Shown here piece after piece: positions 3,693 to 43,205 of a DNA stretch of 43,365 nucleotides. Source of the stretch: a virus. Taxonomy: Duplodnaviria > Heunggongvirae > Uroviricota > Caudoviricetes. Made by a program: the position numbers and the translations under genes. Every line of letters begins with the position of its first letter. Position 1 is the stretch's first letter. The notes under the pieces were generated by a model, which saw only the letters and a program-made list of their open reading frames with translations, was not told the DNA's origin and did not search any database. The stretch lies in the IMG/VR virus record IMGVR_UViG_3300042863_001217; one strand, written 5' to 3'.

Positions 3693-3953
3693 TTAATCGC
3701 CTGCCATTATGACAAGTTCTTTAAGTTTCATCAACTTTGTACACTTCTCATACTCTTCTAAATCCTCAAAGTATTTGATCATTAAGTCGATAAATTTGCT
3801 GCGCTGTTTGATACCGTGAGGTATTTCTACGATACGGTCACTATCCTTGAATGCTATAAAACGATTTACAGTTTTTGTGAAATTTCTAGTGATTTGATAA
3901 TAACTAGCTCTCATTAAACTATCTTTATCCGAATTGGAAATAAAGCTTGCCAT
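3693..3953 (-). CDS. small protein with a C-terminal UVR-like (EEYEKC) helical motif
   Basis: LMIKYFEDLEEYEKCTKL, shared with four other ORFs in the window. Confidence 0.7.
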   Translation of the reverse strand: MASFISNSDKDSLMRASYYQITRNFTKTVNRFIAFKDSDRIVEIPHGIKQRSKFIDLMIKYFEDLEEYEKCTKLMKLKELVIMAGD

Positions 3954-4068
3954 CCTAGTGTGCTTTTTTTTATACGAGGAATATTTCCTCTGTGTATATA
4001 TTATTTAATTGTATACCCTAATCTGTATATTCAATACGTAAATATTAGGATATTTTAATAATATGTTA

Positions 4069-4251
4069 TTAAGAATTCTTTTTTGATTCTAGATACTTAG
4101 CCTTTTGTAGTTTTAGGCGATTCTTAACGGATGGTTTTGTAAAATCTTGCTGATCTCTGAGTTTTTTTAATTGTTTGGTTCTAATAACCTTTCCTTTATA
4201 TTGTTTTAGAGCCTGTTCTAAGTTACCTTTATTTACTTCAATTATCAGCAT
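4069..4251 (-). CDS. rpsU: 30S ribosomal protein S21 (phage-encoded)
   Basis: MLIIEV..NLEQALKQYKGKV...FTKPSVKNR matches the Bacteroidota-type bS21 pattern. Confidence 0.88.
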   Translation of the reverse strand: MLIIEVNKGNLEQALKQYKGKVIRTKQLKKLRDQQDFTKPSVKNRLKLQKAKYLESKKNS

Positions 4252-4511
4252 ATTTTGATTTGTTTTTTAATTTTGTTTATTTCAGCGCACTTTTCAAATT
4301 CTTCTTTGATTTCAAAGTGTTTTAACATTGCGCCTAATATAGTGCTCTTACGTTCATCTTCCATATCAGATGCAATAACGTACGTTGGATGATTAGTTAT
4401 AGCTTGATACAATGCGTTAAAAAACATATCGGCATCGTTAGCAACTATACCATCAATGACTTTAAACCAATTTGATTTATTGTTTTTACCACTAGAAAAA
4501 TAACTATTCAT
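4245..4511 (-). CDS. small protein with a C-terminal UVR-like motif
   Basis: AMLKHFEIKEEFEKCAEI. Confidence 0.7.
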   Translation of the reverse strand: MNSYFSSGKNNKSNWFKVIDGIVANDADMFFNALYQAITNHPTYVIASDMEDERKSTILGAMLKHFEIKEEFEKCAEINKIKKQIKIC

Positions 4512-5304
4512 ATTGAGCGTTCTTTACTTTCTCTATATATTCTATCTGCTCATCACTAAGTTCATAATATCTAGCATTTAATTTACATAAGAGCGCACCT
4601 TTATTCTCAGTGCCATATATAGGGTATCCACGATCTTTGATTCTTAGTGTTTTTCCTGGATAACTATTCTTTGGAATGTTAATGTATATCATACCTTCTG
4701 GTGTGTTTACACTCATTTTGGTTCCTAACATTATATCATACCATGGTAAATCTAATTCAATCCATATATCATCATTTTGTAAAATCCACTCAGTCCTATA
4801 CATCACGTGTATGTGTATAATCAAATCACCATTGGGCATTGTACTATTATATTGATGTGGTTGACCTTTACCAGGCACTCTTAATTTCATACCTGTTTTT
4901 AGACCAGGTTTGAAATCAACTTTAATTTCTTGACCATTTACTGCAAATTGTTTTGACGTACCATGATATGCTTCATCAAAACTTAGATGTAGATCTAATC
5001 TTAAATCGGTACCTTTTGTAGTTTGTTGAGAATTGAAAGCATTGCCAAACATTTGATCAAATATATCTGACATGTTGAATCGACCTTCAAATCCTGAAAA
5101 GTTTTGGAAATTAGAAGTACTGTCGTATTTCTTTCTTGAGGATTCATCACCTATTTTTTCATAAGCTTCAGCAATTTGCTTGAATCTGTCATCGCTGCCA
5201 CCATTTTTATCGGGATGATGTTCTTTGGCTAGTTTACGATATGCTTGTTTTATATCATCTTGAGAGGATGATTTGTCTACACCTAATATATTATACGGAT
5301 CCAT
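4504..5304 (-). CDS. dnaJ: DnaJ/CbpA-type co-chaperone (J domain plus C-terminal domain, no zinc finger)
   Basis: DPYNILGV..AYRKLAKEHHPDKN J domain, G/F-rich linker, GDL C-terminal domain. Confidence 0.9.
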   Translation of the reverse strand: MDPYNILGVDKSSSQDDIKQAYRKLAKEHHPDKNGGSDDRFKQIAEAYEKIGDESSRKKYDSTSNFQNFSGFEGRFNMSDIFDQMFGNAFNSQQTTKGTDLRLDLHLSFDEAYHGTSKQFAVNGQEIKVDFKPGLKTGMKLRVPGKGQPHQYNSTMPNGDLIIHIHVMYRTEWILQNDDIWIELDLPWYDIMLGTKMSVNTPEGMIYINIPKNSYPGKTLRIKDRGYPIYGTENKGALLCKLNARYYELSDEQIEYIEKVKNAQYE

Positions 5305-5482
5305 CAGATATATTTGCAGTATTAAGTTTACCTCTTAAGTCCACTTTAAGATTCTTTTCTTGTAATTTCTCAATCACAATCTTTCTCTTTTCTGCAACTT
5401 CTGCACTCTTATTAGATTTCTCTAAAGCGTCTGCGATTCTTTTCAACTGAGTTATTAACTCTTTTGCTATTTTATCTTCCAT
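5291..5482 (-). CDS. hypothetical coiled-coil protein
   Basis: 63-aa charged helical ORF (LKRIADALEK) overlapping both neighbours. Confidence 0.6.
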   Translation of the reverse strand: MEDKIAKELITQLKRIADALEKSNKSAEVAEKRKIVIEKLQEKNLKVDLRGKLNTANISDGSV

Positions 5483-5729
5483 ATTTATTCTTTACTAAGT
5501 CTGACTTACCATTTTGAAAATCTTGATAAGGCAATGAATTATCTTTTTGACCTTTATGTGGGCCATTAACCATTATAGTGTCTTTATACGGATTTGTTTC
5601 ACCTATCTTATTACGTAACCAATCATCTAAGCTTTGAATAGATCCTTGGAAATGTCTTATGCTAACTAAAAGAGGATCTTCGTTTTCAAGATCTGCTCTG
5701 TATTCTTCGTATAGTTTAATGTGTTTCAT
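5472..5729 (-). CDS. hypothetical protein with an N-terminal MKHIKLYEEY motif (putative head-packaged protein)
   Basis: The start at 5729 forms an ATGA overlap with the upstream small ORF. Confidence 0.65.
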   Translation of the reverse strand: MKHIKLYEEYRADLENEDPLLVSIRHFQGSIQSLDDWLRNKIGETNPYKDTIMVNGPHKGQKDNSLPYQDFQNGKSDLVKNKYGR

Positions 5730-5851
5730 TTTAATTCCATTTTTTGTATTACGGGTTCTATAGAACCGCATGTTCTACAAGTCCAATATTGTCCATTAGT
5801 TGATGCTGTACCAACCAATATCATTTCAGATTTACATGTGCATGTTTTCAT
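5726..5851 (-). CDS. small zinc-ribbon protein (41 aa, not in the ORF track)
   Basis: Manual translation MKTCTCKSEMILVGTASTNGQYWTCRTCGSIEPVIQKMELK: CxC..CxxC, GATATATA motif immediately upstream, ATGA coupling downstream. Confidence 0.6.
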   Translation of the reverse strand: MKTCTCKSEMILVGTASTNGQYWTCRTCGSIEPVIQKMELK

Positions 5852-5867
5852 ATATTATATATCACAC

Positions 5868-5897
5868 AAAAAAACCCGAAACATGGTTCCGGGTTTT
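5868..5897 (-). terminator. intrinsic terminator
   Basis: AAAACCCG/CGGGTTTT stem followed by a T-run on the minus strand, just after the 5921..6457 ORF. Confidence 0.65.
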
Positions 5898-5920
5898 GAT
5901 TAAATATTGGTGGTTATAGT

Positions 5921-6457
5921 TTATTTAAATACCTTTTCAACGTTCTCTTTTGAAAACTTTGCTTCTAATGCTTCAATAGCACCTTTTTTATCTTTAGAAC
6001 TCAATGCTTTAAATCTCTTCAATATCCTTTCATTGTTGTCAGTTGCGTTTCTGTATTGTCCGCCGTTATCAATATACTGAGCATAAAAATCATAAGAGAA
6101 TGCATACTTTAAAAACTTCTCAAGATCTGACATATATTTGTCTTCTAATGTCTTTGTTAAATCAGAAGAATTGATTTTCTTTTTATTGAAATAGAATTCC
6201 CAAGAATCAGTTGTCATTCTCCATTTTGAAACCATATACATGTGGATAACATCACCATCAGAAAGTGTTACTTGAAACTTAATACCTTTCTCTGTAGATT
6301 GGTCCTCGATATTCTTGATCCATTTCTCGTCTCTTGTTGGTAGAACTTTTAAGACTACAAATTTTGCATCTTCTAGTATTTCTTCAGGAGTACCCCATTT
6401 ACCCTTACTCATGTCAGTGTAAGTAGTATATTTTTCAAATGTCATTACTGGTTTCAT
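5921..6457 (-). CDS. hypothetical protein with an N-terminal MKPVMTFEKY motif
   Basis: 178-aa ORF; N-terminus resembles those of 5472..5729 and 12488..13441. Confidence 0.75.
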   Translation of the reverse strand: MKPVMTFEKYTTYTDMSKGKWGTPEEILEDAKFVVLKVLPTRDEKWIKNIEDQSTEKGIKFQVTLSDGDVIHMYMVSKWRMTTDSWEFYFNKKKINSSDLTKTLEDKYMSDLEKFLKYAFSYDFYAQYIDNGGQYRNATDNNERILKRFKALSSKDKKGAIEALEAKFSKENVEKVFK

Positions 6458-6472
6458 ATGTCTCGTTTTTTA

Positions 6473-6781
6473 TTATATATTCTGCTTTGTCTTTAAAGCT
6501 TCAACAATCTTATTCTTTGCTGATAGAATAACTGCACACTTTTCATACTCTTCAAGATCTTGAAAGTGTTCGATCATCATCCTAAAGGTTTCATTAAGAT
6601 CATTTAGTTCAGACTGTGGCAAATGTCTAAGATGCCATTCACTGATTCCGTTCTTGGCTATATTGTCATAGTTAGATTCAATGGCAATAAGCATCATACG
6701 TTCTTTGTAAGTTGCTAAATCACTTTCGAACTTACGTTGACTGTTTTCCATAAACTCGTCAAAATCAAAATCTTCTTCCAT
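6473..6781 (-). CDS. small protein with a C-terminal UVR-like motif
   Basis: MMIEHFQDLEEYEKCAVI. Confidence 0.75.
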   Translation of the reverse strand: MEEDFDFDEFMENSQRKFESDLATYKERMMLIAIESNYDNIAKNGISEWHLRHLPQSELNDLNETFRMMIEHFQDLEEYEKCAVILSAKNKIVEALKTKQNI

Positions 6782-6799
6782 GTTATATTTATTTATACA

Positions 6800-6857
6800 G
6801 CTAATATACTAATAATATTTGACATAAAAAAATCCTGGCTAAAAAAGTTACGAACAA
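6800..6857 (-). promoter_or_regulatory. class A tripartite promoter motif
   Basis: Full copy; the upstream box is flanked by an AATCCTGG/CCAGGATT inverted repeat. Confidence 0.75.
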
Positions 6858-6878
6858 TTTTCACCAGGATTAAATATA

Positions 6879-8398: not shown

Positions 8399-8420
8399 TA
8401 TATCTTCTTTTAATTATAGA

Positions 8421-8478
8421 GCTAATATACTACTTATATTTGACATATAAAAATTTATTTGATAAAAGTTACGAACAA
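8421..8478 (-). promoter_or_regulatory. class A tripartite promoter motif
   Basis: Full copy with identical spacing. Confidence 0.75.
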
Positions 8479-8480
8479 TT

Positions 8481-8762: not shown

Positions 8763-8775
8763 ATCTTAATATTTG

Positions 8776-9928: not shown

Positions 9929-9932
9929 AATT

Positions 9933-30212: not shown

Positions 30213-33200
30213 TTATGATTCTACAAAGAATGTTATAATTATGTAAGAAGGCGTAGCTCCTGTTGCAACACCAACTGCTGTTGTAACTGCAGTAAATTGT
30301 ACAGAGGCATTACTTTCTGTATTTATTATTGCATTTACAGAGGCAGTAGTACCTATAATAGCTTTGGTAAATAAATTACCTACACCATCTCTTGCCGTAG
30401 TAGAACCCATTAAAACTGGTTTTCCTAAAGGATGTGTAAGTGTTAGGTTATTGCTTGATTTTGCAATATTCCAACCACTAACTAACCAACCTGATGCACT
30501 ATTGTATATTTCTGTACCATTAGGTGCATACACGTTTGCGATAGGTGTAGTAGCATCTATACTACCAGATAATGTGTTAACTTTAATTTTATAAGCAACT
30601 ATAGCTCCAGTAGCATTTGTTCCATCATTACCTGGAGCACCTTGTACTCCATCGATTCCAGATGTACCATTAATACCATCGATTCCAGAAGTACCATCTA
30701 AACCATTTGTTCCGTCGTTTCCATTAGCACCATCAATACCTGAAGTACCATCAAAACCACTTGTTCCATCAATACCTGAAGTACCATTAGTTCCATCGTT
30801 TCCATTAGCACCTTGTAAACCATCGATTCCAGATGTACCATTTAAACCATCAATTCCTGATGTTCCGTTTAAACCATCGATTCCAGATGTACCATCGTTT
30901 CCATTAGCACCTTGAATTCCATCAATACCTGATGTTCCGTTTAAACCATCGATTCCAGATGTACCATCGTTTCCATTAGCACCTTGAATTCCATCGATTC
31001 CAGAAGTACCATTTGTACCGTCTAAACCATTAGTTCCATCGTTACCATTAGCACCTTGTAAACCATCGATACCTGATGTTCCGTTTAAACCATCGATTCC
31101 AGATGTACCATCGTTTCCATTAGCACCTTGAATTCCATCGATTCCAGAAGTACCATTTGTACCGTCTAAACCATTAGTTCCATCGTTACCATTAGCACCT
31201 TGAATTCCATCGATTCCAGAAGTACCATTTGTACCGTCTAAACCATTAGTTCCATCGTTACCATTAGCACCTTGTAAACCATCGATACCAGAAGTTCCAT
31301 CTAAACCGTTTGTTCCATCGTTACCATTAGTACCTTGAAGTCCATCAATACCTGAAGTACCATTAGTTCCATCGTTACCATTAGCACCTTGAAGTCCATC
31401 GATTCCAGAGGTTCCATCTTGACCAGCTAAACCTGAAGTTCCGTTTTGACCATCAATACCTGATGTTCCATTAATACCTGAAGTTCCAGTATCACCTTGA
31501 ATACCTTGTGCTCCATTAGTTCCTGAAGTTCCGTTTTGACCAGCTAAACCCGAAGTTCCATTTTGACCGTTTATTCCAGATGTACCATCAATACCTGATG
31601 TTCCATCGTTTCCAGCATTACCTTGGTCACCTTGAATACCCTGTGCTCCATTAGTTCCTGAAGTTCCATCTTGACCATTTAAACCGGAAGTTCCATTGAT
31701 ACCAGAAGTTCCACTAACTCCTGAAGTTCCATTAGTTCCACTAGTTCCATTTTCTCCGGCAAGACCTTGATCTCCTTGTGCTCCATTTGTTCCATCAATA
31801 CCTGAACTTCCATTAAGTCCTGAAGTACCATTAACTCCTGAAGTTCCAGCAGGTCCAGTTTCACCTTGATCACCTTTTACACCTATTTCTCCGTTTGTTC
31901 CAGAAGTACCATTAATACCTGATGTACCATCTTGACCATTTATACCTGAAGTACCATCAATTCCTGATGTACCATCGTTTCCATTTATACCGTTTAAACC
32001 AGAAGTTCCATTTGTTCCAGAAGTTCCATCAATACCAGAAGTTCCAGCATTACCTTGTAAACCAGTTTCACCTTGTAAACCAGTTTCACCTTGTAAACCT
32101 TGTGCTCCATCAATACCCGAAGTTCCATCTAAACCATTAATTCCAGAAGTTCCATCTAAACCATTTGTACCATCGTGACCTGAAGTTCCATCAATTCCTG
32201 ATGTACCATTTACTCCAGAAGTTCCATCATTACCAGCAGCTCCTTGTGTTCCATCAATTCCTGATGTACCATCTAAACCATTAGTACCAGATGTACCATC
32301 TAAACCATTTGTACCATTAATTCCTGATGTACCACTTTCGCCATTTGTTCCTGAAGTTCCATCATTACCAACATTACCTTGTGCTCCGTTAATTCCAGAT
32401 GTACCATCTAAACCATTTGTTCCTGAAGTTCCATCATTACCAGCATTACCTTGTGCTCCGTTAATTCCAGAAGTTCCATTGATACCTGATGTACCATCTT
32501 GACCATTGATTCCAGAAGTTCCAGCTAAACCATTGATTCCTGATGTTCCATCTTGACCATTGATTCCAGAAGTTCCAGAAGTTCCATTAGTTCCAGATGT
32601 ACCATCAATACCAGCATCACCTTGTAAACCTTGTGCTCCATTAATACCACTAGTTCCATTGATTCCTGAAGATCCAGAAGTTCCAGACGTAGTAACAGTA
32701 ACTGAAGGGAAAATAACTTCAACACTTCCGTTTCCATCATTATTTACAATTGCACCACCACTAAATTTAATGTTATGTACATCATTTATAGCAGCAGCGC
32801 CGTTTGGTGTGATTGATATACCATGTGGTGAAGAATAAGATTCTGTAAAAATACCTAATTCATCTCCAGCTTCAATTAAGTAAGATGATCCAGGTACATA
32901 TGAATTTCCTTCTGCCTGAACTATTAATTCAATAGCATCATCAGCTTCATTTACAAGAGGATTATTTTGATCAGCGTTAATTACATCAATTCTACTCCAG
33001 CTTTTAATTTCAAATGCAGAATATTCGCTATTATTATTTACGTTAGTTAAGAATAAAGAAACTAAAACACCATCTATATTAATTCTATTCTCTAATACTG
33101 ATTCAAGATATGCATTTCTATAACCCTTATCATCTTTAAGTGCAATTCTAATTTTACTAACACTCGATGGATTTGCAGCATTTAAAATAATTTCACCCTG

Positions 33201-33689
33201 TGCTGGTTTACCAGTGATTGAAAATGATTTTACTTTATATACAGATCCTGGTAAAGTAAATCTACTAGTTACTATATCTCCGACAGCTTTTCCTGCATCA
33301 TAAACATTTGCAACCTTAATAGCAGGTAAGTCAACTTTATTAATACCTAAAGTAGTATAAACTTTAGCTTTTATTGCTCCTGATATATTAGCATCACTAA
33401 ATGGTAAAGCTGCAGTTTGTTCAGCAGATATTGCTATAGATATTTCTCCTTGGAAATCTGAATTAGGTGAACCAAAAACAAGTGTTCCTGATGTTTTTGC
33501 AAATGTAGCAATTAAAGTATTATTAGTGTCAAATAAATCTACTTTAATTTCATTGGCAACCCCAATATTTAGTTGATTACCAATGTAATCTTGGTGTAGC
33601 ATAAGTTTTATGCTATTAGCTTGACCTCTAACGATTCTCGCTACTTCCGGTAATACTAAAATTATGTTTTGATTTGAAACAGTTGGCAT
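30213..33689 (-). CDS. large collagen-like (GTS/GID/GLN/GND) fibre protein
   Basis: About 330-aa globular N-terminus, about 690 aa of G-X-Y, about 110-aa C-terminal domain. Confidence 0.88.
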   Translation of the reverse strand: MPTVSNQNIILVLPEVARIVRGQANSIKLMLHQDYIGNQLNIGVANEIKVDLFDTNNTLIATFAKTSGTLVFGSPNSDFQGEISIAISAEQTAALPFSDANISGAIKAKVYTTLGINKVDLPAIKVANVYDAGKAVGDIVTSRFTLPGSVYKVKSFSITGKPAQGEIILNAANPSSVSKIRIALKDDKGYRNAYLESVLENRINIDGVLVSLFLTNVNNNSEYSAFEIKSWSRIDVINADQNNPLVNEADDAIELIVQAEGNSYVPGSSYLIEAGDELGIFTESYSSPHGISITPNGAAAINDVHNIKFSGGAIVNNDGNGSVEVIFPSVTVTTSGTSGSSGINGTSGINGAQGLQGDAGIDGTSGTNGTSGTSGINGQDGTSGINGLAGTSGINGQDGTSGINGTSGINGAQGNAGNDGTSGTNGLDGTSGINGAQGNVGNDGTSGTNGESGTSGINGTNGLDGTSGTNGLDGTSGIDGTQGAAGNDGTSGVNGTSGIDGTSGHDGTNGLDGTSGINGLDGTSGIDGAQGLQGETGLQGETGLQGNAGTSGIDGTSGTNGTSGLNGINGNDGTSGIDGTSGINGQDGTSGINGTSGTNGEIGVKGDQGETGPAGTSGVNGTSGLNGSSGIDGTNGAQGDQGLAGENGTSGTNGTSGVSGTSGINGTSGLNGQDGTSGTNGAQGIQGDQGNAGNDGTSGIDGTSGINGQNGTSGLAGQNGTSGTNGAQGIQGDTGTSGINGTSGIDGQNGTSGLAGQDGTSGIDGLQGANGNDGTNGTSGIDGLQGTNGNDGTNGLDGTSGIDGLQGANGNDGTNGLDGTNGTSGIDGIQGANGNDGTNGLDGTNGTSGIDGIQGANGNDGTSGIDGLNGTSGIDGLQGANGNDGTNGLDGTNGTSGIDGIQGANGNDGTSGIDGLNGTSGIDGIQGANGNDGTSGIDGLNGTSGIDGLNGTSGIDGLQGANGNDGTNGTSGIDGTSGFDGTSGIDGANGNDGTNGLDGTSGIDGINGTSGIDGVQGAPGNDGTNATGAIVAYKIKVNTLSGSIDATTPIANVYAPNGTEIYNSASGWLVSGWNIAKSSNNLTLTHPLGKPVLMGSTTARDGVGNLFTKAIIGTTASVNAIINTESNASVQFTAVTTAVGVATGATPSYIIITFFVES
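30612..32690 (-). repeat. coding Gly-X-Y repeat with higher-order duplications; boundaries approximate
   Basis: GTSGIDG(L/I)QGANGNDG blocks recur several times at about 30800-31400. Confidence 0.85.
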
Positions 33690-34860: not shown

Positions 34861-35550
34861 TTATATTTGTTTTGGTTTTATGATCTCATCTATAATACCA
34901 TATTTAACTGCTTCTTCTGCATTTAACCAAAAATCTCGAGTAGCATCTTTCATTACTCTTTCTGGTTTCTTGCCACAATATGATCCTAATAGATTAAATA
35001 GTTCATAGTTTACTTTTTGCCATTCTGCCCAATCTACTTCAGCGTCTTGTATATTTCCACTAAAACCACCCGAAGATTGGTGTAACATTGTTGTCGAATG
35101 TCTCAAAGACGCTCTTTTACCTTTAGTTCCAGCACCTAATAAGACTGAACCCATTGATGCTGCCATACCAGTATTAACTGTGCGTATATCACATGGTATG
35201 TATTCCATAACGTCTACCATAGAAAGCCCTGACTTAACTGAACCACCTGGAGAATCGATATGCATTGTAATATCGTCTGCGCTATTGCTTGATAAAAACA
35301 TTAATTGTGCTTGTACAACAGTGCTCATATTGTCATCTACTGGACCTGCAACCCATAATAATCTATCTGCCATTAATCTTGAAAAAATATCCATTTGAGT
35401 AACTCGCATTTCACGCTCCTCTAAAATATAAGGAGTCATTGAAGCTTGCTTACTTGCAATTGAACTATATAAGTCTAAGTGTGATCCACCTAAATTGAAT
35501 TCTGATTTTGCGAATCTGTGAAATTCTTTTTCTTTTGGAAAATAATTCAT
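34861..35550 (-). CDS. clpP: ATP-dependent Clp protease proteolytic subunit
   Basis: MDIFSRL, IDSPGG, GMAASMGS (Ser), MLHQ (His) and RDFWL (Asp). Confidence 0.96.
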   Translation of the reverse strand: MNYFPKEKEFHRFAKSEFNLGGSHLDLYSSIASKQASMTPYILEEREMRVTQMDIFSRLMADRLLWVAGPVDDNMSTVVQAQLMFLSSNSADDITMHIDSPGGSVKSGLSMVDVMEYIPCDIRTVNTGMAASMGSVLLGAGTKGKRASLRHSTTMLHQSSGGFSGNIQDAEVDWAEWQKVNYELFNLLGSYCGKKPERVMKDATRDFWLNAEEAVKYGIIDEIIKPKQI

Positions 35551-35879
35551 TATTGTATCTGTTTTTGTATTTGTTTAATTAAATCACACGTTTCATACTC
35601 TTCAATAAGAGAAAAATAGTTCTTTGCTTTGTTCAAAGATTTTTCATAACCAGATTCTGGTAATACCATCTCGTATTCTCTGTCTTCGGCATCTACTAAA
35701 ATTGCTAGTAAATGTGAATCAGGTTTCCTCTCTATCTTATTTAGTATATATTCTACAATTCTTCTATAGAATATGTCATACTTGGACATTAAGAGTTTTT
35801 CAAAGTCTTCTGCTAAAATATGTGTGGGATCAATATGTATTCTTGGAGGTGTATTCATGTTATAACGTAAAGTAATCAC
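35550..35879 (-). CDS. small protein with a C-terminal UVR-like motif, coupled to clpP
   Basis: AKNYFSLIEEYETCDLI; its stop overlaps the clpP start by 1 nt. Confidence 0.75.
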   Translation of the reverse strand: MITLRYNMNTPPRIHIDPTHILAEDFEKLLMSKYDIFYRRIVEYILNKIERKPDSHLLAILVDAEDREYEMVLPESGYEKSLNKAKNYFSLIEEYETCDLIKQIQKQIQ

Positions 35880-36708
35880 TTAATATTGCTTTGTAGTTAA
35901 CATCACTGTCTCCGCTTGTTTGATCTACTCTTGTTACGAATTCAATTCCAGCATCTGTCAAAAATACATTACCGTCTTTGTAATCTATAAGTGGTTGTTT
36001 TAGAATTAAACTAGATACAGTATCTTTTAAATCTTCTTGTTTGATTTTTTCAGCTAGTTCAAAATGTCTTTCGTAAAAGTGTAAGTTGTCTGCGAAATGG
36101 TAATAATCACCTAATTCTAAAGATTTATACTTGTCATCTTTTTTAAGAATCAAATATACAGATTGCATTAAGAATGAAAAGAACGGTGCATCAAATGTAA
36201 GACCATAGAAAACATCATTTGATCTCATCTGAATCTTCATGTTTAATTTATTATCTCTAATAAAGAAGTTAGCGTACATTGTACATACGAAATCTTTATT
36301 GCCTTTGAATTGAAACTTAGGTTGATTAAAGAACATGATAGCTTGACGACTATTGTCATCAGCTAATAATGAATCAACTACCCAACCAATTTGTTCATTA
36401 TTGATAACTAATGCACCATAATTTGAATTGATTTGGTTTGTACCTTGATTTGTGATACCTTTCCAGAAATTTGAAAATTTATTAATGTAACTAATATCTG
36501 TGTCTCTGTGAAGATACCATGCCATTTCACCTGCAAAGTATTTCCAATTGAATTTTCTTGATTCAAAATTTGCAATTGGTTTTTTAGGATCAATTGTTAT
36601 ATCAGCTAATAATAATTCTTTGACTTCAAGATCTCTCGGTTTCGAGAGATCTCCGAATGTGTCTATTTGTAATATAGCTTCTTTAAGTATATTTGAAAAG
36701 TCTGTCAT
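35860..36708 (-). CDS. dCMP hydroxymethylase-like enzyme (thymidylate synthase superfamily, T4 gp42-like)
   Basis: INSNYG, SRQAIM, KDFVCT (catalytic Cys) and MRSNDVFYGLTFD, with Asp at the base-specificity position. Confidence 0.8.
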   Translation of the reverse strand: MTDFSNILKEAILQIDTFGDLSKPRDLEVKELLLADITIDPKKPIANFESRKFNWKYFAGEMAWYLHRDTDISYINKFSNFWKGITNQGTNQINSNYGALVINNEQIGWVVDSLLADDNSRQAIMFFNQPKFQFKGNKDFVCTMYANFFIRDNKLNMKIQMRSNDVFYGLTFDAPFFSFLMQSVYLILKKDDKYKSLELGDYYHFADNLHFYERHFELAEKIKQEDLKDTVSSLILKQPLIDYKDGNVFLTDAGIEFVTRVDQTSGDSDVNYKAILSDYFTL

Positions 36709-36729
36709 TTGTTAATTGTTTTTATAGTA

Positions 36730-36756
36730 GTTATACTATAATTTAATAAATAGTTT
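36730..36756 (-). promoter_or_regulatory. class B promoter (AAAC-N17-TATAAC)
   Basis: Exact spacing; overlaps the clpC 3' end, upstream of the hydroxymethylase-like gene. Confidence 0.65.
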
Positions 36757-38751
36757 ATCTTCTGATGTAATCTTAGTGATTGTGTATTCTATATCTTTTT
36801 TAATACTTTGATCGATAATTGCATCTGCAACAATATCTTCAACATATTTTTGTATAGCTCTTTTTACTGGTCTTGCACCATAAGATTGATCGTATCCTTC
36901 TTTTACTAAGAAATCTTTAGCTTGTTTAGAAAACTTAAAGAAGTAACCTTCGTCTTGCATTCTATAAGAAAAGTTATCTAGTTCTATTTGAACAATTTTT
37001 AATATGTCAGTGTTCTCTAATTGATCGAATAAAACAATATCATCTAATCTGTTTAAGAATTCAGGACTAAATTTGTTCTTTAATTCTTTTTTAATAATGG
37101 AATCCATCTTTTTGCTTTCTTCGGCTATTGCTGAGCCACTTGCAAATCCAATTCCTGATCCAAAATCTGCAACCTTTCTGGCACCAACATTTGATGTCAT
37201 GATGATAATAGTATTTGTAAAATCTACTGTACGTCCACTTGAATCTGTTAATCGACCTTCATCTAATACCTGTAATAAAGTGTTGAATACATCTGGGTGG
37301 GCTTTCTCGATCTCATCAAACAAGACAACTGAATAAGGTTTACGTCTAACCGCTTCAGTTAATTGACCGCCTTCCTCGTGTCCTACGTAACCTGGAGGAG
37401 ATCCTATCAAACGACTCACATTGAATTTTTCTTGATACTCACTCATATCAATTCTAATCATAGCATCAATATCTCCAAATAAGTATTCGGCTAAAGCTTT
37501 TACTGTTTCAGTTTTACCAACACCAGTTGGTCCTAAGAACATGAATGATCCACTTGGTTTTCTATGACTAGCAACACCAGTTCTAGATCTTTTAATAACA
37601 CTACATAAAGCATCTACCGCTTTGTCTTGTCCGATAATCATTTTCTTGATTTCTGCGGCCATGTTCTTAATCATCTTAAGATCGTCAACTCCTAATTTAT
37701 TTACAGGAATTCCAGTTTGTGTAGATATTGTTTCAGCTATATCTTCTACTGTGATTTTTAATTTAGTCACCTTAAGTGACTCTTCCCATAAAGTAGTCTC
37801 TTGAGCAATTTTATTTTCTATTGACAATTGATCATCTCTAAGTCTTGCAGCAACTTCATAATCTTGTTCTTCGACTGCTTTTTTCTTTTGTAATTTAATG
37901 TCTTCAGATTGTTTCTCAAGGTTTTTTATCTTTGATGGAATTTTAACCTCTAGTAAATGTGTTCTTGCACCAGCTTCATCCATTAAATCAATGGCCTTGT
38001 CAGGAAGTTCTCTTTGTTTAATATAACGATCACTCATTCTTACACATGCATCAATAGCTTCATCTGTATATTCTACAGAGTGATACTCTTCGTAGTTATG
38101 TTTGATACGCATAAGAATATCAATGGTATCTTCAACTGATGGAGCATCTACAAACACTTCTTGGAAACGTCTAGTTAATGCACCATCATCTTCAATATTC
38201 TCGCGATATTCATCTAATGTTGTTGCACCAATACATTGTACTTGTCCACGTGCTAATGCTGGTTTAAGGATATTAGATGCATCTAAAGCACCGCTAACAC
38301 CACCTGCACCAACAATTGTATGTAACTCATCAATGAATATAATAACATTATCATTGGCTTTAAGTTCCTCTACAATATTTTTCATTCTCTCTTCGAATTC
38401 ACCCCTGTATTTAGTACCTGCTACGATGGTAGTCATATTCAATGAAATAAGTCTTTTATTAATCAAGACTCTTGCCACTTTCTTATCAACTATTCGTTGT
38501 GCGATAGCTTCTACAATTGCAGTTTTACCAACACCTGGATCACCTAAGATAATTGGATTGTTTTTCTTTCTTCGTGCCAAAATCTGACAAATTCTATGAA
38601 TCTCTTTATCTCTACCGATAATAGGATCCAATTTACCTTCAGCTGCAGCCGCAGTCAAATCCTCACCGAATTCATCTAAGAATGGTGTAGTCTTTTTCTT
38701 TTGGTTGCCCTTTCTGTTTTTCTCGTTTTCGTATCCGTCTGCTAATGACAT
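36736..38751 (-). CDS. clpC: ClpC-type AAA+ unfoldase lacking the N-terminal domain
   Basis: Two Walker A motifs (GDPGVGKT, GPTGVGKT), UVR M-domain EQDYEVAARLRD and IGF ClpP-docking loop; the ORF begins about 20 aa before NBD1. Confidence 0.92.
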   Translation of the reverse strand: MSLADGYENEKNRKGNQKKKTTPFLDEFGEDLTAAAAEGKLDPIIGRDKEIHRICQILARRKKNNPIILGDPGVGKTAIVEAIAQRIVDKKVARVLINKRLISLNMTTIVAGTKYRGEFEERMKNIVEELKANDNVIIFIDELHTIVGAGGVSGALDASNILKPALARGQVQCIGATTLDEYRENIEDDGALTRRFQEVFVDAPSVEDTIDILMRIKHNYEEYHSVEYTDEAIDACVRMSDRYIKQRELPDKAIDLMDEAGARTHLLEVKIPSKIKNLEKQSEDIKLQKKKAVEEQDYEVAARLRDDQLSIENKIAQETTLWEESLKVTKLKITVEDIAETISTQTGIPVNKLGVDDLKMIKNMAAEIKKMIIGQDKAVDALCSVIKRSRTGVASHRKPSGSFMFLGPTGVGKTETVKALAEYLFGDIDAMIRIDMSEYQEKFNVSRLIGSPPGYVGHEEGGQLTEAVRRKPYSVVLFDEIEKAHPDVFNTLLQVLDEGRLTDSSGRTVDFTNTIIIMTSNVGARKVADFGSGIGFASGSAIAEESKKMDSIIKKELKNKFSPEFLNRLDDIVLFDQLENTDILKIVQIELDNFSYRMQDEGYFFKFSKQAKDFLVKEGYDQSYGARPVKRAIQKYVEDIVADAIIDQSIKKDIEYTITKITSEDKLFIKL

Positions 38752-38776
38752 ATATTAATTTAGTTTTATTATAGTT

Positions 38777-38803
38777 GTTATATGTATCAATTTCATTTAG
38801 TTT
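38777..38803 (-). promoter_or_regulatory. class B promoter (AAAC-N17-TATAAC)
   Basis: Exact spacing, upstream of clpC. Confidence 0.65.
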
Positions 38804-39252: not shown

Positions 39253-39301
39253 TATTTAACATATTAGTATATGCTATTTATCTCAAAAAGTAGGGTATGA
39301 A

Positions 39302-39601
39302 TTATACGTAAAGTGTTAGTATATATGCAAGCTTATAACCGATGAATGCTCCTAATGCAGTTGGAATTGGAAACACTATTAATTTACCAAGATCTGTTAC
39401 GTATTTAGGTCTATTAACAATAGTTCCCATATATGAATAATATACTAAGTATCCAACTAATACTGCCCAGTCAATATGAGCCGAAATAAAAACCACAAGT
39501 ATGGCTCCTAAAAATCCAAAAATAAAGTTATCACGAGTAGCTTCCCAAATTTCTTTACGAGTTGCATCTTTCCATTCTTTAACAATTTTCTTTAAGCGCA
39601 T
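39302..39601 (-). CDS. small membrane protein
   Basis: Three hydrophobic segments. Confidence 0.75.
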   Translation of the reverse strand: MRLKKIVKEWKDATRKEIWEATRDNFIFGFLGAILVVFISAHIDWAVLVGYLVYYSYMGTIVNRPKYVTDLGKLIVFPIPTALGAFIGYKLAYILTLYV

Positions 39602-39604
39602 ATA

Positions 39605-40303
39605 TTATTGATTGATAAATTTATTGGCACGTTCAAGATCTTCTGGCGTATCAATACCAAATGACTTGTATTCTGTGAATTCAGAAACTACTTGGATTCC
39701 ATTATCCATCCAAGTCAATTGCTCTAATGAATTATTTATTGAGTTTTCTGAAGGTTTCAATTTAGATATTCTATTTAATGTTTCCTTAGAATATCCATAT
39801 ATTCCGATATGTTTAAATATAAAATTGTTTTTATCATAAACATTGCTCCGCGTAAACATCACTGCAATACCCATATGATTAGTTAAAATCTTAACTGCAT
39901 TCGGATCAATAGATTCATTTTCAATTAAGTCGGTTTTAAGAGTAGCTACTGAGTTTGGATTTGCCTTAATCAATTTTATAATTAGGTCAATATCCGATGG
40001 ATTGATAAAAGGTTCATCACCCTGTACATTAATAATAATATCGCTATTAATTGATCGATGTGCTTGAATAACTCTCTCTGTTCCAGTTTCACATTCGGTT
40101 GTTGCTATTACTTTAGCTCCGAAATTTTCAGCAACTTCAGATATTAATCGACTATCTGTGGCAATAATTACTTCATCTGCATTAGATTGACATGCTCGTT
40201 CCCAAGTATGTTGAATCATTGGTTTGTCACCGATCATTGCTAATGGTTTTCCAGGTAATCGAGTTGACTTAAATCTTGCAGGTATAATAACCGTCACTTT
40301 CAT
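39605..40303 (-). CDS. kdsB: 3-deoxy-manno-octulosonate cytidylyltransferase (CMP-Kdo synthetase)
   Basis: IPARFKSTRLPGKPL, TGTERV, NVQGDEP, KHIGIYGY, LEQL and GIDTPEDL. Confidence 0.92.
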   Translation of the reverse strand: MKVTVIIPARFKSTRLPGKPLAMIGDKPMIQHTWERACQSNADEVIIATDSRLISEVAENFGAKVIATTECETGTERVIQAHRSINSDIIINVQGDEPFINPSDIDLIIKLIKANPNSVATLKTDLIENESIDPNAVKILTNHMGIAVMFTRSNVYDKNNFIFKHIGIYGYSKETLNRISKLKPSENSINNSLEQLTWMDNGIQVVSEFTEYKSFGIDTPEDLERANKFINQ

Positions 40304-40899
40304 TATTGCTCTTTACTCTTTTGACCTAAATAACCGCTGTGATGTCTTTTTGAATATTCTCTTTTAGTGAAGCCAATTTTCTTCATTAACTCTACCACTA
40401 TAATATCTCCAATTACTGTCATCAGTGTTGTTGAAATAGTAGGTGTTAATCCAAGTGGACAAATTTCTTCTGAATCACCAGTATGCAATACAACATCTGA
40501 TTCGATTGCTAATGGACTGTCTATTTTACCAGTGATAGAAATTACTTTAACCTTCGGTTGTAAAATCCTAGACAGCATGATTAATTCACTGATCTCTCTG
40601 GTTTTACCAGAATTTGATAATAATATAAGAACGTCGTGTTTACAAAGAATTCCTAAATCACCATGTTGAGCTTCGCTTGGATGCAAATAAACAGCAGGTG
40701 TTCCAGTTGAACACAAAGTCTGTGCTATGTTTATACCAATTTGTCCAGCCTTTCCCATTCCACTAACAACTATTTTTCCACCTAAATCGTGTACTTGATA
40801 TTTGATTATATCCACGGCAGATTCGAATGAATCATTTATTGGAATATTTTGAATTGCTTCAACTTCTAGTTGAATTATTTTTTTAATATTATCTTGCAT
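40303..40899 (-). CDS. kdsD: arabinose-5-phosphate isomerase, SIS domain only (no CBS pair)
   Basis: GMGKAG, STGTPAVYLHPSEAQHGDLG, SNSGKT and CPLGLTPTIST. Confidence 0.9.
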   Translation of the reverse strand: MQDNIKKIIQLEVEAIQNIPINDSFESAVDIIKYQVHDLGGKIVVSGMGKAGQIGINIAQTLCSTGTPAVYLHPSEAQHGDLGILCKHDVLILLSNSGKTREISELIMLSRILQPKVKVISITGKIDSPLAIESDVVLHTGDSEEICPLGLTPTISTTLMTVIGDIIVVELMKKIGFTKREYSKRHHSGYLGQKSKEQ

Positions 40900-40902
40900 A
40901 AT

Positions 40903-42018
40903 CTAGTTTGATAGTGGTGCTTTGATTTCTGGATGTGATTCGTAATTTACCAGTTTAATTGAGTTCCTGTCTATTTTATTAAATTCAGTAATGTAACCAT
41001 CATAATATGTATACTCAAAATCTAATTCAATATTGGGCAATTTCATAGGTTCTCTATTTAATTGTTCTTTTGCCTGTTCAATATGATTAGAATATAGGTG
41101 AACATCTCCAAGATTTCCAATTAATTCATCAGGAACCATGTTAACGCGTTTTGCTAACATCATCAATAATAGACCATACGAAGCAATGTTAAATGGTAAC
41201 CCCAAGAATGTGTCTACACTTCGCTGATTCCACATTAATGAGATTGCTCGAGCTGGTATTTCATTTTCATCATATTGATTATGAGTGTAGATATTTCCAG
41301 CAGGGTTATGTGTATTATTCCATAATTTTGCTCGCTCTTCTAAACTCAACTCTCTTGTATAAACTTGAAATCCATAGTGACATGGCGGAAGTACCATTTG
41401 ATCAATTTCTGCAACATTCCATGCATTAACCATTAATCTTCTAGAATCTGGATTCCTTTCAAGATCTGCAATAAGTCGAAGTATTTGATCGTACCAAAGA
41501 GAACCGTGTCCTTTCGAACCATCATCGTTTTTATAATGCATCCAACCTTGCCATTGTCTCCATTGTTTGCCATAAACTGGACCTAAATCTCCAAGTTGGT
41601 AACCTGTCAAATCTGGAATAAAATGAGTAGCAGGACTTTTAATCTTCTCGATCCAATCTCGATCATCTTTGTAGTTCTTAATTCCCTGGATAAATTGTTC
41701 CATCGACATTGGATCTACACCATGTGCAACACATTCCTTTTCATATCCTTTGTATGCATCACCATTCCAAATATTACAATTGTTGTCAACTAAGAATTTG
41801 ATATTGGTATCGCCCTGTAAAAACCAAAGTAACTCAGTTACCATGGTTTTAAATGCCATTTTCTTGGTAGTCAATAATGGAAATCCTTCGGACATTTTGT
41901 GTCTAATCTGACGACCAAAAATTGAGACAGTTCCTGTTCCAGTTCTATCTTGTTTCTCGATACCATTGTCAAGAATGTCTTTAAGTAATTTTAAGTAATC
42001 GTGTTCTATGTTATTCAT
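40903..42018 (-). CDS. thyA: thymidylate synthase
   Basis: DRTGTGT, ELLWFL, LPPCH and RSVDTFLGLPFNIASY; carries two insertions. Confidence 0.96.
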   Translation of the reverse strand: MNNIEHDYLKLLKDILDNGIEKQDRTGTGTVSIFGRQIRHKMSEGFPLLTTKKMAFKTMVTELLWFLQGDTNIKFLVDNNCNIWNGDAYKGYEKECVAHGVDPMSMEQFIQGIKNYKDDRDWIEKIKSPATHFIPDLTGYQLGDLGPVYGKQWRQWQGWMHYKNDDGSKGHGSLWYDQILRLIADLERNPDSRRLMVNAWNVAEIDQMVLPPCHYGFQVYTRELSLEERAKLWNNTHNPAGNIYTHNQYDENEIPARAISLMWNQRSVDTFLGLPFNIASYGLLLMMLAKRVNMVPDELIGNLGDVHLYSNHIEQAKEQLNREPMKLPNIELDFEYTYYDGYITEFNKIDRNSIKLVNYESHPEIKAPLSN

Positions 42019-42172
42019 TTTTGTCTAGTCTTCTTTTAATTATCTCTTCAATAGAGGATTCAATCTCTTCTTGTGTATCATCATCTAAATTATACCACCA
42101 ATCATCAAATCCGCTTCTATCACAAAGTGCATCAAAAATTTCTAATACACATTTTTTAATTTGTCTACTCAT
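42011..42172 (-). CDS. small acidic hypothetical protein (53 aa, not in the ORF track)
   Basis: Manual translation MSRQIKKCVLEIFDALCDRSGFDDWWYNLDDDTQEEIESSIEEIIKRRLDKNE; overlaps both neighbours by a few nt. Confidence 0.65.
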   Translation of the reverse strand: MSRQIKKCVLEIFDALCDRSGFDDWWYNLDDDTQEEIESSIEEIIKRRLDKNE

Positions 42173-42384
42173 ATGAAAAGATCAAATGTTTCATCTTCTT
42201 CCACCCACATATAAATGTCTGTCTCTAATGGATTTGATTTGCCAGGAATATAATCAGGATTGCTAACAGTTTTCCATTTCCTACCACATCTTTTACATGA
42301 ACACTTACTCGGCATCCATCCGAAGTTATAAGAGTATTGATGTCCTCTAATCTTGCAAATAATTTGAGCTATCGTCCTTTTCAT
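42169..42384 (-). CDS. small putative Zn-binding protein
   Basis: CKIRGH..CSCKRCG pattern. Confidence 0.6.
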   Translation of the reverse strand: MKRTIAQIICKIRGHQYSYNFGWMPSKCSCKRCGRKWKTVSNPDYIPGKSNPLETDIYMWVEEDETFDLFI

Positions 42385-42784
42385 CTAATTCATGTATTTT
42401 AAAACTAATTTTTTGTAATGAAGCATTTAGTCTTTCTCGTGACTTTGCAAATTCTGTGCGAATCCACCCCTCACGACCTTCTTCGATCAAAGCCTTATTA
42501 ACAATTTTATAAATCTTCTTGTATATTTCATTACTTAATTGATCTGGACTCTTATGACTCGACATATAAAATATATCTTCACGGTGAATCCCTTCAAATG
42601 TTAAATGTAATTTTGCAGATCTGCTATAAATATCAACAACTTCTACTTGGACACTTACTTTGACAAATGGTCCAAGTTTGCTTAAAAACCATGGTTTTGA
42701 TTCATCCTCGTTTTTAGGTTGGTCTAATGAAACCTTATAAATATCATTTAGATATTCTTGTACAATAAATTCAGGATATGTCAT
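42347..42784 (-). CDS. hypothetical protein
   Basis: 145-aa ORF in the operon. Confidence 0.7.
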   Translation of the reverse strand: MTYPEFIVQEYLNDIYKVSLDQPKNEDESKPWFLSKLGPFVKVSVQVEVVDIYSRSAKLHLTFEGIHREDIFYMSSHKSPDQLSNEIYKKIYKIVNKALIEEGREGWIRTEFAKSRERLNASLQKISFKIHELDEKDDSSNYLQD

Positions 42785-42976
42785 TTAATCTAGATATTTG
42801 TTAAACATTTCTTTTGCTTTCTCTAATTTCTCAGTGCGCTCATCCATAATTACATTAATAATGAAGTTAGCTTCTCTATTAGAACATTCATTTTCAATAA
42901 TTCTAATATATGTTTCTACATCAACACCCAATTCTTCAGCAATAGCCATATCCATCATGTCATATAATCCTGCCAT
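42785..42976 (-). CDS. hypothetical protein
   Basis: 63-aa acidic helical ORF abutting its neighbours. Confidence 0.7.
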   Translation of the reverse strand: MAGLYDMMDMAIAEELGVDVETYIRIIENECSNREANFIINVIMDERTEKLEKAKEMFNKYLD

Positions 42977-42977
42977 G

Positions 42978-43205
42978 TTATTTCTGTTTTTCTATTAGAA
43001 TTTCTTTTAAGATAACACAATGCTCATAAAGTCCATCCTTTTCAAATGCTATTAATGCAGCGCGTAAATCTTGAGGTGTACCTAATTCTGCCCATTCTTT
43101 GAATTCTTGAGTACCACCCAAATAATCAATTAATTTGTTTGGTTGCACCAATTCACTATAAGCCTTGTCTAAAGTTTTAATGTGTTGTTCGTTTAAATTA
43201 TCCAT
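42978..43205 (-). CDS. small protein with a divergent C-terminal UVR-like motif
   Basis: ALIAFEKDGLYEHCVIL. Confidence 0.65.
   Translation of the reverse strand: MDNLNEQHIKTLDKAYSELVQPNKLIDYLGGTQEFKEWAELGTPQDLRAALIAFEKDGLYEHCVILKEILIEKQK

What the first reader, a model, noticed from the sequence alone, without database searches (positions are those of the whole stretch)
3693..43205. Five paralogous UVR-like (EEYEKC) proteins as candidate adaptors for a phage ClpCP protease
Seen: ORFs 3693..3953, 4245..4511, 6473..6781, 35550..35879 and 42978..43205 share only a C-terminal helix pair, (M/A)..(Y/H)F...EEYE(K/T)C..(I/L), while their N-termini are unrelated. The phage ClpC has a UVR M-domain (EQDYEVAARLRD), and one paralogue is translationally coupled to clpP. 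Established: UVR coiled coils dimerise head to head, and ClpC M-domains mediate adaptor and regulator contacts. Inference: a modular adaptor set, with a constant docking module and variable substrate-binding heads, that redirects proteolysis to chosen host or phage targets. This would be an undescribed phage targeted-degradation system.
Basis: partly seen in the sequence, partly recalled or inferred. Interest (0 to 1): 0.8.

Follow-up and report, generated by a model that had tools for sequence, protein, structure and literature searches.

The report
Shared UVR-like hairpin in phage proteins
Five small genes of an uncultured T4-like jumbo phage end in the same conserved helical hairpin, a distant relative of the UVR motif that is widespread in phages. 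Only one of the five is tied to the phage's own ClpC-ClpP protease, so a five-member adaptor set is not supported.

Summary
All five ORFs lie on the minus strand and end in a ~30-residue module, L..MI.(Y/H)FE...EEYEKCA.L. The core [YF]E.C occurs exactly five times in the six-frame translation, always 11-20 residues from a C-terminus.

The module is a helix-turn-helix hairpin. It defines a large viral family absent from Pfam and PHROGs, with 412 clusters at 50% identity. The five proteins do not match Pfam UVR, but a "CA.IRD" subgroup does: one member at the curated cut-off and three just below. I read the module as a diverged UVR motif.

The adaptor idea is only partly supported. The P0004 subfamily sits directly upstream of clpP, next to an N-domain-less clpC, in every relative examined, down to 37% identity. 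The other four paralogues are elsewhere; one is wedged between dnaJ and bS21.

The module also occurs once per genome in four (near-)complete phages with no ClpP or Hsp100. Two of three other ClpC+ClpP phages lack it. Expansion to 3-5 copies was seen only in this lineage.

Binding to ClpC is untested. The scan reached a similar reading before on other DNA (e1-5399705).

The parts
3693..3953 (-). P0001, 86 aa, EEYEKC-hairpin protein. Lies between bS21 and PhoH. Core gene of the lineage.
   Evidence: Hundreds of orthologs at 80-97% identity in marine and freshwater contigs. AF2 pLDDT 88.6: helix, beta-hairpin, C-terminal helical hairpin.
4245..4511 (-). P0002, 88 aa, EEFEKC-hairpin protein. Overlaps the dnaJ stop by 8 nt and the bS21 start by 7 nt.
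   Evidence: Orthologs P0251 and P0259.
6473..6781 (-). P0003, 102 aa, EEYEKC-hairpin protein with an acidic N-terminus. Lies downstream of an RNA ligase gene.
35550..35858 (-). P0004, 102 aa from the ATG at 35858 (the GTG at 35879 would give 109 aa). EEYETC-hairpin protein. Its stop overlaps the clpP start (TAATG).
   Evidence: AF2 pLDDT 84.6. The order ClpC / TS-like / P0004 / ClpP is kept in relatives down to 37% identity.
42978..43205 (-). P0005, 75 aa, the most divergent member (GLYEHC).
   Evidence: Relatives P0270, P0280, P0332 and P0390.
36736..38751 (-). ClpC-type Hsp100 ATPase, 671 aa. No N-domain, UVR motif in the M-domain, GIGF ClpP-docking loop.
   Evidence: AAA_2, AAA_lid_9 and ClpB_D2-small; UVR 23.7 bits at residues 283-313. 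Sequence read. Best bacterial relatives are Bacteroidota, 54-58% identity.
34861..35550 (-). ClpP peptidase, 229 aa.
   Evidence: PF00574, E 1e-56.
35860..36708 (-). Thymidylate-synthase-fold enzyme lying between clpC and P0004.
   Evidence: PF00303, E 6e-19. Its stop is 1 nt before the P0004 ATG.
4504..5304 (-). Phage DnaJ (J domain plus DnaJ_C), directly upstream of P0002.
4069..4251 (-). Ribosomal protein bS21 homolog, directly downstream of P0002.
   Evidence: Pfam annotation of the orthologous gene in L001-L004.

Best explanation
The five ORFs are real genes for small (75-102 aa) phage proteins. They belong to one large, virus-only, unannotated family defined by a C-terminal helix-turn-helix hairpin, L..MI.(Y/H)FE...EEYEKCA.L.

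The hairpin is most likely a strongly diverged UVR motif. The Tyr, Cys-Ala and Leu take the places of the Phe, Ala-Ala and Leu of UVR's FE.AA.LRD.

In the two proteins modelled, the hairpin packs with an N-terminal helix and a beta-hairpin into a compact mini-domain.

I infer (not shown) that the hairpin is a protein-protein contact or dimerisation element, as UVR hairpins are in UvrB/UvrC and in ClpC M-domains, and that the divergent N-terminal halves give each paralogue its own partner.

Only the P0004 ('EEYETC') subfamily is a fixed member of the phage clpC-clpP gene block, so it is the single credible Clp cofactor candidate (adaptor, regulator or assembly factor). I put that at about 40%. 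P0002 is coupled instead to dnaJ and bS21. P0001, P0003 and P0005 have no Clp link.

Because the module occurs in complete phages without Clp genes, its basic function does not depend on a phage-encoded ClpCP.
For: - Motif statistics in the window.
- Family size and C-terminal position: 412 clusters at E<=1e-3; Cys invariant in 155 of 155.
- No Pfam or PHROGs family for the module.
- Link to UVR, at the Pfam level: the module ORF of a complete 120-kb phage scores 21.6 bits on PF02151 (cut-off 21.5). Three further 'CA.[ILV]RD' members score 16.9-17.5 bits in the same register.
- Link to UVR, at the profile level: hhalign of the module against a 68-sequence ClpC-UVR profile scores 11.8 (P 0.019). 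That is above all 150 column shuffles and in the register EEYEKCA.L = Q.FE.AA.L.
- Link to UVR, from the Atlas: neighbouring viral clusters carry UVR in 13% and 32% of members.
- Predicted fold: AF2 pLDDT 85-89, with helices at 50-64/68-83 (P0001) and 68-84/88-101 (P0004).
- Clp link of P0004: the TAATG overlap. A module ORF lies directly upstream of clpP in 4 of 4 IMG/VR records of the lineage that contain clpP. The same order is found in marine and distant relatives at 37-66% identity.
- Independence from phage Clp: ClpP is present in 1 of 30 module-bearing viral records. Of 4 records at least 90% complete, none has ClpP or an AAA_2 ATPase, and each has one module copy.
Against: - None of the five window proteins matches Pfam UVR, even at E<=10. 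The profile-profile probability is only 2.5%. The UVR relationship therefore rests on intermediates and is not proven.
- The invariant Cys is unexplained by a purely structural role, since Ala, Ser or Gly would be expected at a small core position. It hints at chemistry (metal, redox) that this explanation does not cover.
- The conserved gene order around P0004 extends to the whole block (RNaseH-like, ClpC, TS-like, P0004, ClpP and three downstream genes). It may therefore reflect lineage-wide synteny rather than function.
- No partner of any paralogue has been identified.
Confidence: 0.55

Rival explanations
1. All five are modular adaptors. The constant hairpin docks on the UVR M-domain of the N-domain-less phage ClpC, and the variable N-termini bring chosen host or phage proteins to ClpCP for degradation.
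For: - The hairpin is UVR-like.
- ClpC has lost the N-domain, the usual adaptor site, but keeps a UVR M-domain and an IGF loop.
- P0004 is coupled to clpP.
- 3-5 copies per record in this ClpCP-bearing lineage, against one copy in other phages.
- Precedents: the chloroplast UVR-domain proteins ClpF, EXE1/2 and UVR2-4 interact with CLPC1 (PMC8889267); SPO1 Gp53 acts as an adaptor-like protein on host ClpC (PMC6873191).
Against: - Four of the five genes are not near the clp genes.
- The family is present in complete phages without ClpP or an Hsp100 ATPase.
- Two of three other ClpC+ClpP phages have no module, and in the third the module ORFs lie far from the clp genes.
- In the AF2 models the hairpin is packed into a compact domain rather than left free.
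Confidence: 0.12
2. A mimic of host UVR partners. The hairpin imitates the UVR motif so as to bind host proteins that carry one (UvrB/UvrC in nucleotide excision repair, or host ClpC/ClpB M-domains), blocking or redirecting them during infection.
For: - UVR hairpins pair with other UVR hairpins (UvrB-UvrC, established knowledge). UvrB and UvrC are nearly universal in bacteria, which would explain single copies in many unrelated phages lacking Clp genes.
- The family is virus-only in the Atlas clusters.
- The phage probably modifies its DNA, given the second TS-fold enzyme, which could make excision repair a threat.
Against: - Similarity to genuine UVR is weak.
- It does not explain five paralogues, or the fixed position of one of them beside clpP.
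- No host is known and no interaction was tested.
Confidence: 0.1
3. Purely structural conservation. The hairpin is only the folding core of an old, fast-evolving family of small single-domain phage proteins. There is no shared partner, and the paralogues have unrelated functions set by their surfaces.
For: - P0001 and P0004 are predicted to have the same overall topology over their whole length.
- The conserved hydrophobic positions and the Cys fall on the helix faces that would pack together.
- Genomic neighbours differ from phage to phage: PhoH, ligase, DUF5675, dnaJ, clpP.
Against: The near-invariance of the charged residues E-E-Y-E-K and of the Cys, across about 400 clusters whose remaining sequence is unalignable, is more than a folding core usually needs. 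It suggests a conserved functional surface.
Confidence: 0.2

Closest known systems
UVR motif (Pfam PF02151) of UvrB and UvrC, the ClpC M-domain and McsA
   Same: - A helix-turn-helix hairpin of about 35 residues.
- The same spacing of aromatic, small-small and Leu positions: (F/Y)E.(A/C)A.L.
- A subgroup keeps the following R-D and reaches Pfam's cut-off.
- Often the last element of the protein, as in UvrB.
   Different: - The five window proteins give no Pfam UVR match.
- An invariant Cys replaces the first Ala, and the acidic EE pair is fixed.
- The turn is one residue longer in the alignment with UvrB.
- R-D is usually K-K.
- It occurs in stand-alone viral mini-proteins rather than in repair enzymes or AAA+ ATPases.
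Chloroplast ClpF and the UVR-domain proteins that interact with CLPC1 (EXE1/2, UVR2-4), PMC8889267
   Same: Proteins that combine a UVR motif with varied other domains and associate with a ClpC-type unfoldase. This is the nearest functional precedent for the adaptor idea.
   Different: Eukaryotic organelle proteins with bona fide Pfam UVR domains, and with the ClpC N-domain present. No sequence relationship to the phage family was shown, and the role of the UVR motif in binding is itself not established.
[quoted passage not shown]
   Same: A small phage protein proposed to re-programme a ClpCP protease during infection.
   Different: Gp53 is 25 kDa and acts on the host ClpC. No UVR motif is reported in that paper's abstract. 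Here the ClpC and ClpP are phage-encoded and the ClpC has no N-domain.
Bacterial ClpC adaptors MecA and McsB/McsA, and ClpS
   Same: They work like the role proposed for P0004, as a small partner encoded with clpC/clpP. McsA also carries a UVR motif according to its annotation (my own knowledge, not tested here).
   Different: No sequence match to any adaptor family. By established knowledge those adaptors need the ClpC N-domain, which this ClpC lacks.

Membership tests
UVR motif (PF02151) | Match to the Pfam HMM at the gathering score (21.5 bits) | tested here: not met
   The five window proteins give no UVR hit even at E<=10, and none of 78 family members does at E<=0.1. Other members of the same family do match: the G004 ORF at 21.6 bits and three more at 16.9-17.5 bits.
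UVR motif (PF02151) | Helix-turn-helix hairpin of about 35 residues | tested here: met
   AF2 models have helices at 50-64/68-83 (P0001) and 68-84/88-101 (P0004), with block-mean pLDDT of 92-96 over most of the module, falling to 79-88 in the last residues. These are predictions, not solved structures.
UVR motif (PF02151) | Profile-level similarity to genuine UVR motifs (ClpC M-domain, UvrB C-terminus) | tested here: inconclusive
   hhalign score 11.8, P 0.019, probability 2.5%. This is above all 150 column-shuffled controls (maximum 11.4). The positive control, UvrB against the ClpC-UVR profile, scores 33.7 with P 9e-8.
UVR motif (PF02151) | Pairs with another UVR hairpin (UvrB-UvrC, or ClpC M-domain head-to-head contacts) | not testable with these tools
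   Needs binding experiments.
Clp adaptor proteins (MecA, ClpS, McsB/McsA, ClpF) | Sequence membership in a known adaptor family | tested here: not met
   No Pfam hit to any adaptor family in the five proteins or in 78 relatives.
Clp adaptor proteins (MecA, ClpS, McsB/McsA, ClpF) | Conserved genomic linkage with clpC/clpP | tested here: met
   Met for P0004 only: the TAATG overlap with clpP and the same gene order in all relatives examined. Not met for P0001, P0002, P0003 and P0005.
Clp adaptor proteins (MecA, ClpS, McsB/McsA, ClpF) | Co-occurrence of the module with phage clpC/clpP across phages | tested here: not met
   ClpP is present in 1 of 30 module-bearing records and in 0 of 4 that are at least 90% complete. 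The module is absent from 2 of 3 other ClpC+ClpP phages.
Clp adaptor proteins (MecA, ClpS, McsB/McsA, ClpF) | Binds ClpC, stimulates its ATPase and delivers substrates | not testable with these tools
   Biochemical assays are needed.
TPR / Sel1-like repeats | Match to TPR or Sel1 HMMs | tested here: not met
   No TPR or Sel1 family among the Pfam hits of the five proteins. None is among the families listed for 78 relatives (25 of 59 families shown) or among the hits of the further members scanned. Only a chance-level match to the Sel1-like protein HcpC was seen (1ouv, E 0.74).

The most novel reading that the evidence does not exclude
The EEYEKC hairpin is a phage-wide docking handle for UVR-bearing machines. 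In this jumbo-phage lineage it has been multiplied into a set of small proteins that steer the phage's own N-domain-less ClpC-ClpP (and perhaps DnaJ-dependent chaperoning) towards chosen targets. That would be a virus-encoded targeted-proteolysis system built on UVR-UVR pairing.
Probability: 0.1. Interest if true: 0.8.

Novelty: new variant of a known kind. Interest (0 to 1): 0.5.

Why it matters
A family of more than 400 sequence clusters of small phage proteins has no annotation in Pfam or PHROGs. It now has a defined signature, a predicted fold and a probable evolutionary link to the UVR motif.

One subfamily is a fixed neighbour of a phage-encoded ClpP and of a ClpC that has lost the normal adaptor-binding domain. 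That makes it a concrete, cheap target for asking how such 'headless' viral unfoldases are regulated.

If the hairpin proves to be a docking handle for UVR-bearing machines, it would show how phages re-aim proteolysis or repair. If it does not, the family is still a useful new domain definition.

Tried and rejected
- **Complex prediction.** ClpC(1-345) plus P0004, with alignments, returned 'no answer'. The score was 0.40 and a control with an unrelated chain 1 scored 0.37. This counts neither for nor against binding.
- **Fold searches.** Searches of both models against PDB (Foldseek), the wide VIA-align set and the AFDB clusters gave only generic helical matches (best Z 6.5; E>=0.2) or uncharacterised viral proteins.
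- **Profile against solved chains.** The module profile gave nothing (best E 0.74).
- **PHROGs.** No family for any of the five proteins.
- **GenBank phages.** tblastn of P0001 found no match. tblastn of P0003 gave only chance-level hits. megablast of the clp region found no match.
- **Whole genome.** None is held for the window.
- **The search for related loci.** P0003 in viral contigs found nothing. A DNA pattern for EEYEKCA was used instead.
- **ClpC-only UVR HMM.** No module protein scores significantly (maximum 6.5 bits), though the distribution is shifted above other ORFs. I treat this as weak, because the controls include non-coding frames.
- **Scan for further UVR ORFs.** None was found beside ClpC in two megaphages or in a Staphylococcus phage.
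- **Full-text search.** No paper contains 'EEYEKC'.
- **Metal-site idea.** Considered and set aside. There is only one conserved Cys per protein and no conserved His/Cys partner, apart from a C-terminal Cys in the P0002 subfamily.
Full report
**1. Observation**

The five ORFs exist at the stated coordinates but on the minus strand. Their products are P0001 (86 aa), P0002 (88 aa), P0003 (102 aa), P0004 (109 aa from a GTG, 102 aa from the next ATG) and P0005 (75 aa).

They share a C-terminal stretch: ...MIKYFEDLEEYEKC..., ...MLKHFEIKEEFEKC..., ...MIEHFQDLEEYEKC..., ...AKNYFSLIEEYETC..., and the looser ...ALIAFEKDGLYEHC... .

The core [YF]E.C occurs exactly five times among all 514 six-frame ORFs of at least 30 residues. 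Every occurrence is in these ORFs, 11-20 residues from the C-terminus. An HMM of the module scores the five at 55-69 bits and nothing else above 4 bits. The phage ClpC ORF is not detected by it. This is far beyond chance.

**2. Context**

The window is AT-rich (33.6% GC) and almost all of its genes are on the minus strand.

- 36736..38751 encodes a ClpC-type Hsp100 (AAA_2, AAA_lid_9, ClpB_D2-small). It has a Pfam UVR match at residues 283-313 (23.7 bits, cut-off 21.5) and no Clp_N domain. A GIGF loop is present.
- 34861..35550 encodes ClpP (E 1e-56).
- Between them lie a thymidylate-synthase-fold gene and P0004.
- The P0004 stop and the clpP start overlap as TAATG. The TS-like stop is one base before the P0004 ATG at 35858. 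Orthologs of 101-102 aa favour that ATG.
- P0002 is wedged between a phage dnaJ (J domain plus DnaJ_C) and a bS21 gene, overlapping them by 8 and 7 nt.
- P0001 lies between bS21 and phoH. P0003 lies next to an RNA ligase gene. P0005 lies in a run of small genes near thyA.

Nearly identical contigs come from lake metagenomes, and relatives reach 262 kb. Earlier notes of this scan call the genome an uncultured T4-like jumbo phage of about 240-260 kb, probably infecting Bacteroidota. My only check of that is that the closest bacterial ClpC sequences are from Bacteroidota, at 54-58% identity.

**3. The family**

A profile of the module (alignment A2) finds 412 clusters at 50% identity, at E<=1e-3 against 1.84 billion representatives. 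Almost all are proteins of 40-150 aa with the module at the extreme C-terminus.

The consensus is L-(N/D)-x-M-(I/L)-x-(Y/H)-F-E-x3-E-E-Y-E-K-C-A-x-(L/I). The Cys is present in 155 of 155 aligned members.

The N-terminal parts are diverse. A few members carry other domains, namely LPD38 and an A2L zinc ribbon.

No Pfam or PHROGs family covers the module. Atlas and AFDB neighbours are all 'hypothetical protein' clusters; the Atlas ones are viral.

P0001 orthologs are 80-97% identical across marine and freshwater samples. In the 262-kb marine relative this is 86%, higher than for ClpC (79%) or P0004 (66%). P0004 orthologs run from 95% down to 37%.

**4. Is it UVR?**

- Direct test: negative. No Pfam UVR hit for the five proteins at E<=10 or for 78 relatives at E<=0.1.
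- Profile-profile test: weak. Against a 68-sequence alignment of ClpC M-domain UVR motifs taken from loci L129-L208, the score is 11.8, P 0.019, probability 2.5%. It is nevertheless higher than all 150 column-shuffled controls (mean 7.1, maximum 11.4). It is also in the expected register, EEYEKCA.L over Q.FE.AA.L.
- Positive control: the UvrB C-terminus against the same profile scores 33.7, P 9e-8.
- Bridge: family members whose hairpin reads EEYEKCA.(I/L/V)RD do hit PF02151 on the module itself. The ORF of a complete 120-kb phage (L243:4743-5084) scores 21.6 bits, just over the 21.5 cut-off, at E 1.8e-4. Three others score 16.9-17.5 bits at E about 4e-3.
- Atlas: clusters near P0001 (by features) and near P0004 (by shape, TM 0.67) carry UVR in 32% and 13% of their members.

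I conclude that the module is probably a diverged branch of the UVR motif. The five window proteins are not members by Pfam's criterion.

**5. Fold**

AF2 with ortholog alignments gives confident models: P0004 at pLDDT 84.6 and P0001 at 88.6. Both have the order N-terminal helix(es), beta-hairpin, C-terminal helical hairpin.

By sequence only the last 36 columns of the two ortholog sets align (91% probability). The 'heads' are therefore unrelated by sequence, but they may share a topology. The hairpin appears to be built into a compact mini-domain rather than hanging free.

No solved structure gives an informative match.

**6. Link to Clp**

For:
- In 12 IMG/VR records of this lineage (27-76% complete) there are 3-5 module ORFs each. 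In all four records that include clpP, a module ORF lies directly upstream of it.
- The order RNaseH-like, ClpC, TS-like, P0004-like, ClpP is kept in a 262-kb marine relative at 66% identity.
- The same order is kept in members at only 37-40% identity.

Against:
- Of 30 other viral records found through the EEYEKCA pattern, only one has ClpP, and it is a fragment of this lineage.
- The four records that are at least 90% complete (56, 70, 94 and 120 kb) have neither ClpP nor an AAA_2 ATPase, and each has one module ORF.
- The other records have one copy each. The exceptions are one record with no match at that threshold and one with three copies, whose best copy matches the profile end to end like a P0001 ortholog.
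- Of three other phages that carry both ClpC and ClpP, a 642-kb megaphage has one or two module ORFs far from its clp genes. A 484-kb megaphage and a Staphylococcus phage have none.
- Neighbours of the module gene in the complete phages differ: DUF5675, PhoH a few genes away, a DNA ligase.

But the module itself is clearly not tied to a phage-encoded ClpCP.

**7. Reading**

Shown:
- A real, large family with a conserved C-terminal hairpin.
- A probable remote UVR relationship.
- One subfamily fixed beside clpP.

Inferred:
- The hairpin is a protein-contact or dimerisation element, by analogy with UvrB/UvrC and ClpC M-domains (established knowledge).
- The divergent halves select partners.
- P0004 is a plausible cofactor of the N-domain-less ClpC/ClpP (about 40%).
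- That all five are M-domain-docking adaptors is possible but poorly supported (about 12%).

The invariant Cys remains unexplained.

**8. What is known**

Small UVR-domain proteins that associate with ClpC have a precedent in chloroplasts. ClpF, EXE1/2 and UVR2-4 were enriched in CLPC1 traps (PMC8889267).

A phage protein acting as an adaptor-like factor on host ClpC is also known: SPO1 Gp53 (PMC6873191).

No paper in the library contains the motif.

An earlier follow-up of this scan on other DNA (e1-5399705) reached essentially the same reading. Other notes report tandem-UVR mini-proteins beside N-domain-less ClpC in different jumbo phages. I did not verify those.

**9. Verdict**

This is a new variant of a known kind: a diverged UVR-type hairpin defining an unannotated viral family. 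It includes one concrete, testable candidate partner of a phage ClpCP.

Noticed in passing
window 4069-5304 (minus): dnaJ, P0002 and bS21 form a tightly overlapping trio, with overlaps of 8 nt and 7 nt. A phage co-chaperone, a hairpin protein and a ribosomal protein therefore look co-translated. This arrangement is kept in four near-identical lake contigs.
   Followed up: partly
window 3693-3953 (minus): P0001 is unusually conserved for an 86-aa ORFan: 80-97% identity across marine and freshwater relatives, and higher than ClpC or P0004 in the same 262-kb relative. This suggests a very constrained partner.
   Followed up: partly
window 4245-4511 and relatives P0259, P0353, P0331, P0329, P0366: P0002 and several relatives end in a second Cys, either as the very last residue (P0002, P0331, P0353, P0329, P0366) or about 16 residues after the invariant one (P0259). 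A disulfide or metal site is conceivable.
   Followed up: no
window 22858-25809 and 30213-33689 (minus): Two very long proteins rich in collagen-like G-x-x repeats (983 and 1158 aa). The first matches tail-fibre PHROGs at E 3e-78.
   Followed up: partly
window 39605-42018 (minus): Read from the translations only, this looks like a CMP-KDO synthetase-like gene (39605..40303), a SIS-domain sugar isomerase-like gene (40303..40899) and a long thymidylate synthase (40903..42018). That would make this a second TS-fold gene, besides the one beside clpC.
   Followed up: no
P0298 and P0295 (metagenomic relatives): The module can be fused to other domains. In P0298 an LPD38 polyvalent-protein domain (E 2.5e-30) precedes it. 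In P0295 an A2L-type zinc ribbon follows it.
   Followed up: partly
LR756502.1 (642-kb uncultured phage; L246): This megaphage has an N-domain-less ClpC homolog (52% identity) and three separate ClpP-family genes, at about 59, 112 and 365 kb.
   Followed up: no
L249/L250 1-267: In a more distant relative of the lineage, a seryl-tRNA synthetase gene lies just upstream of the RNaseH-like / ClpC block.
   Followed up: no
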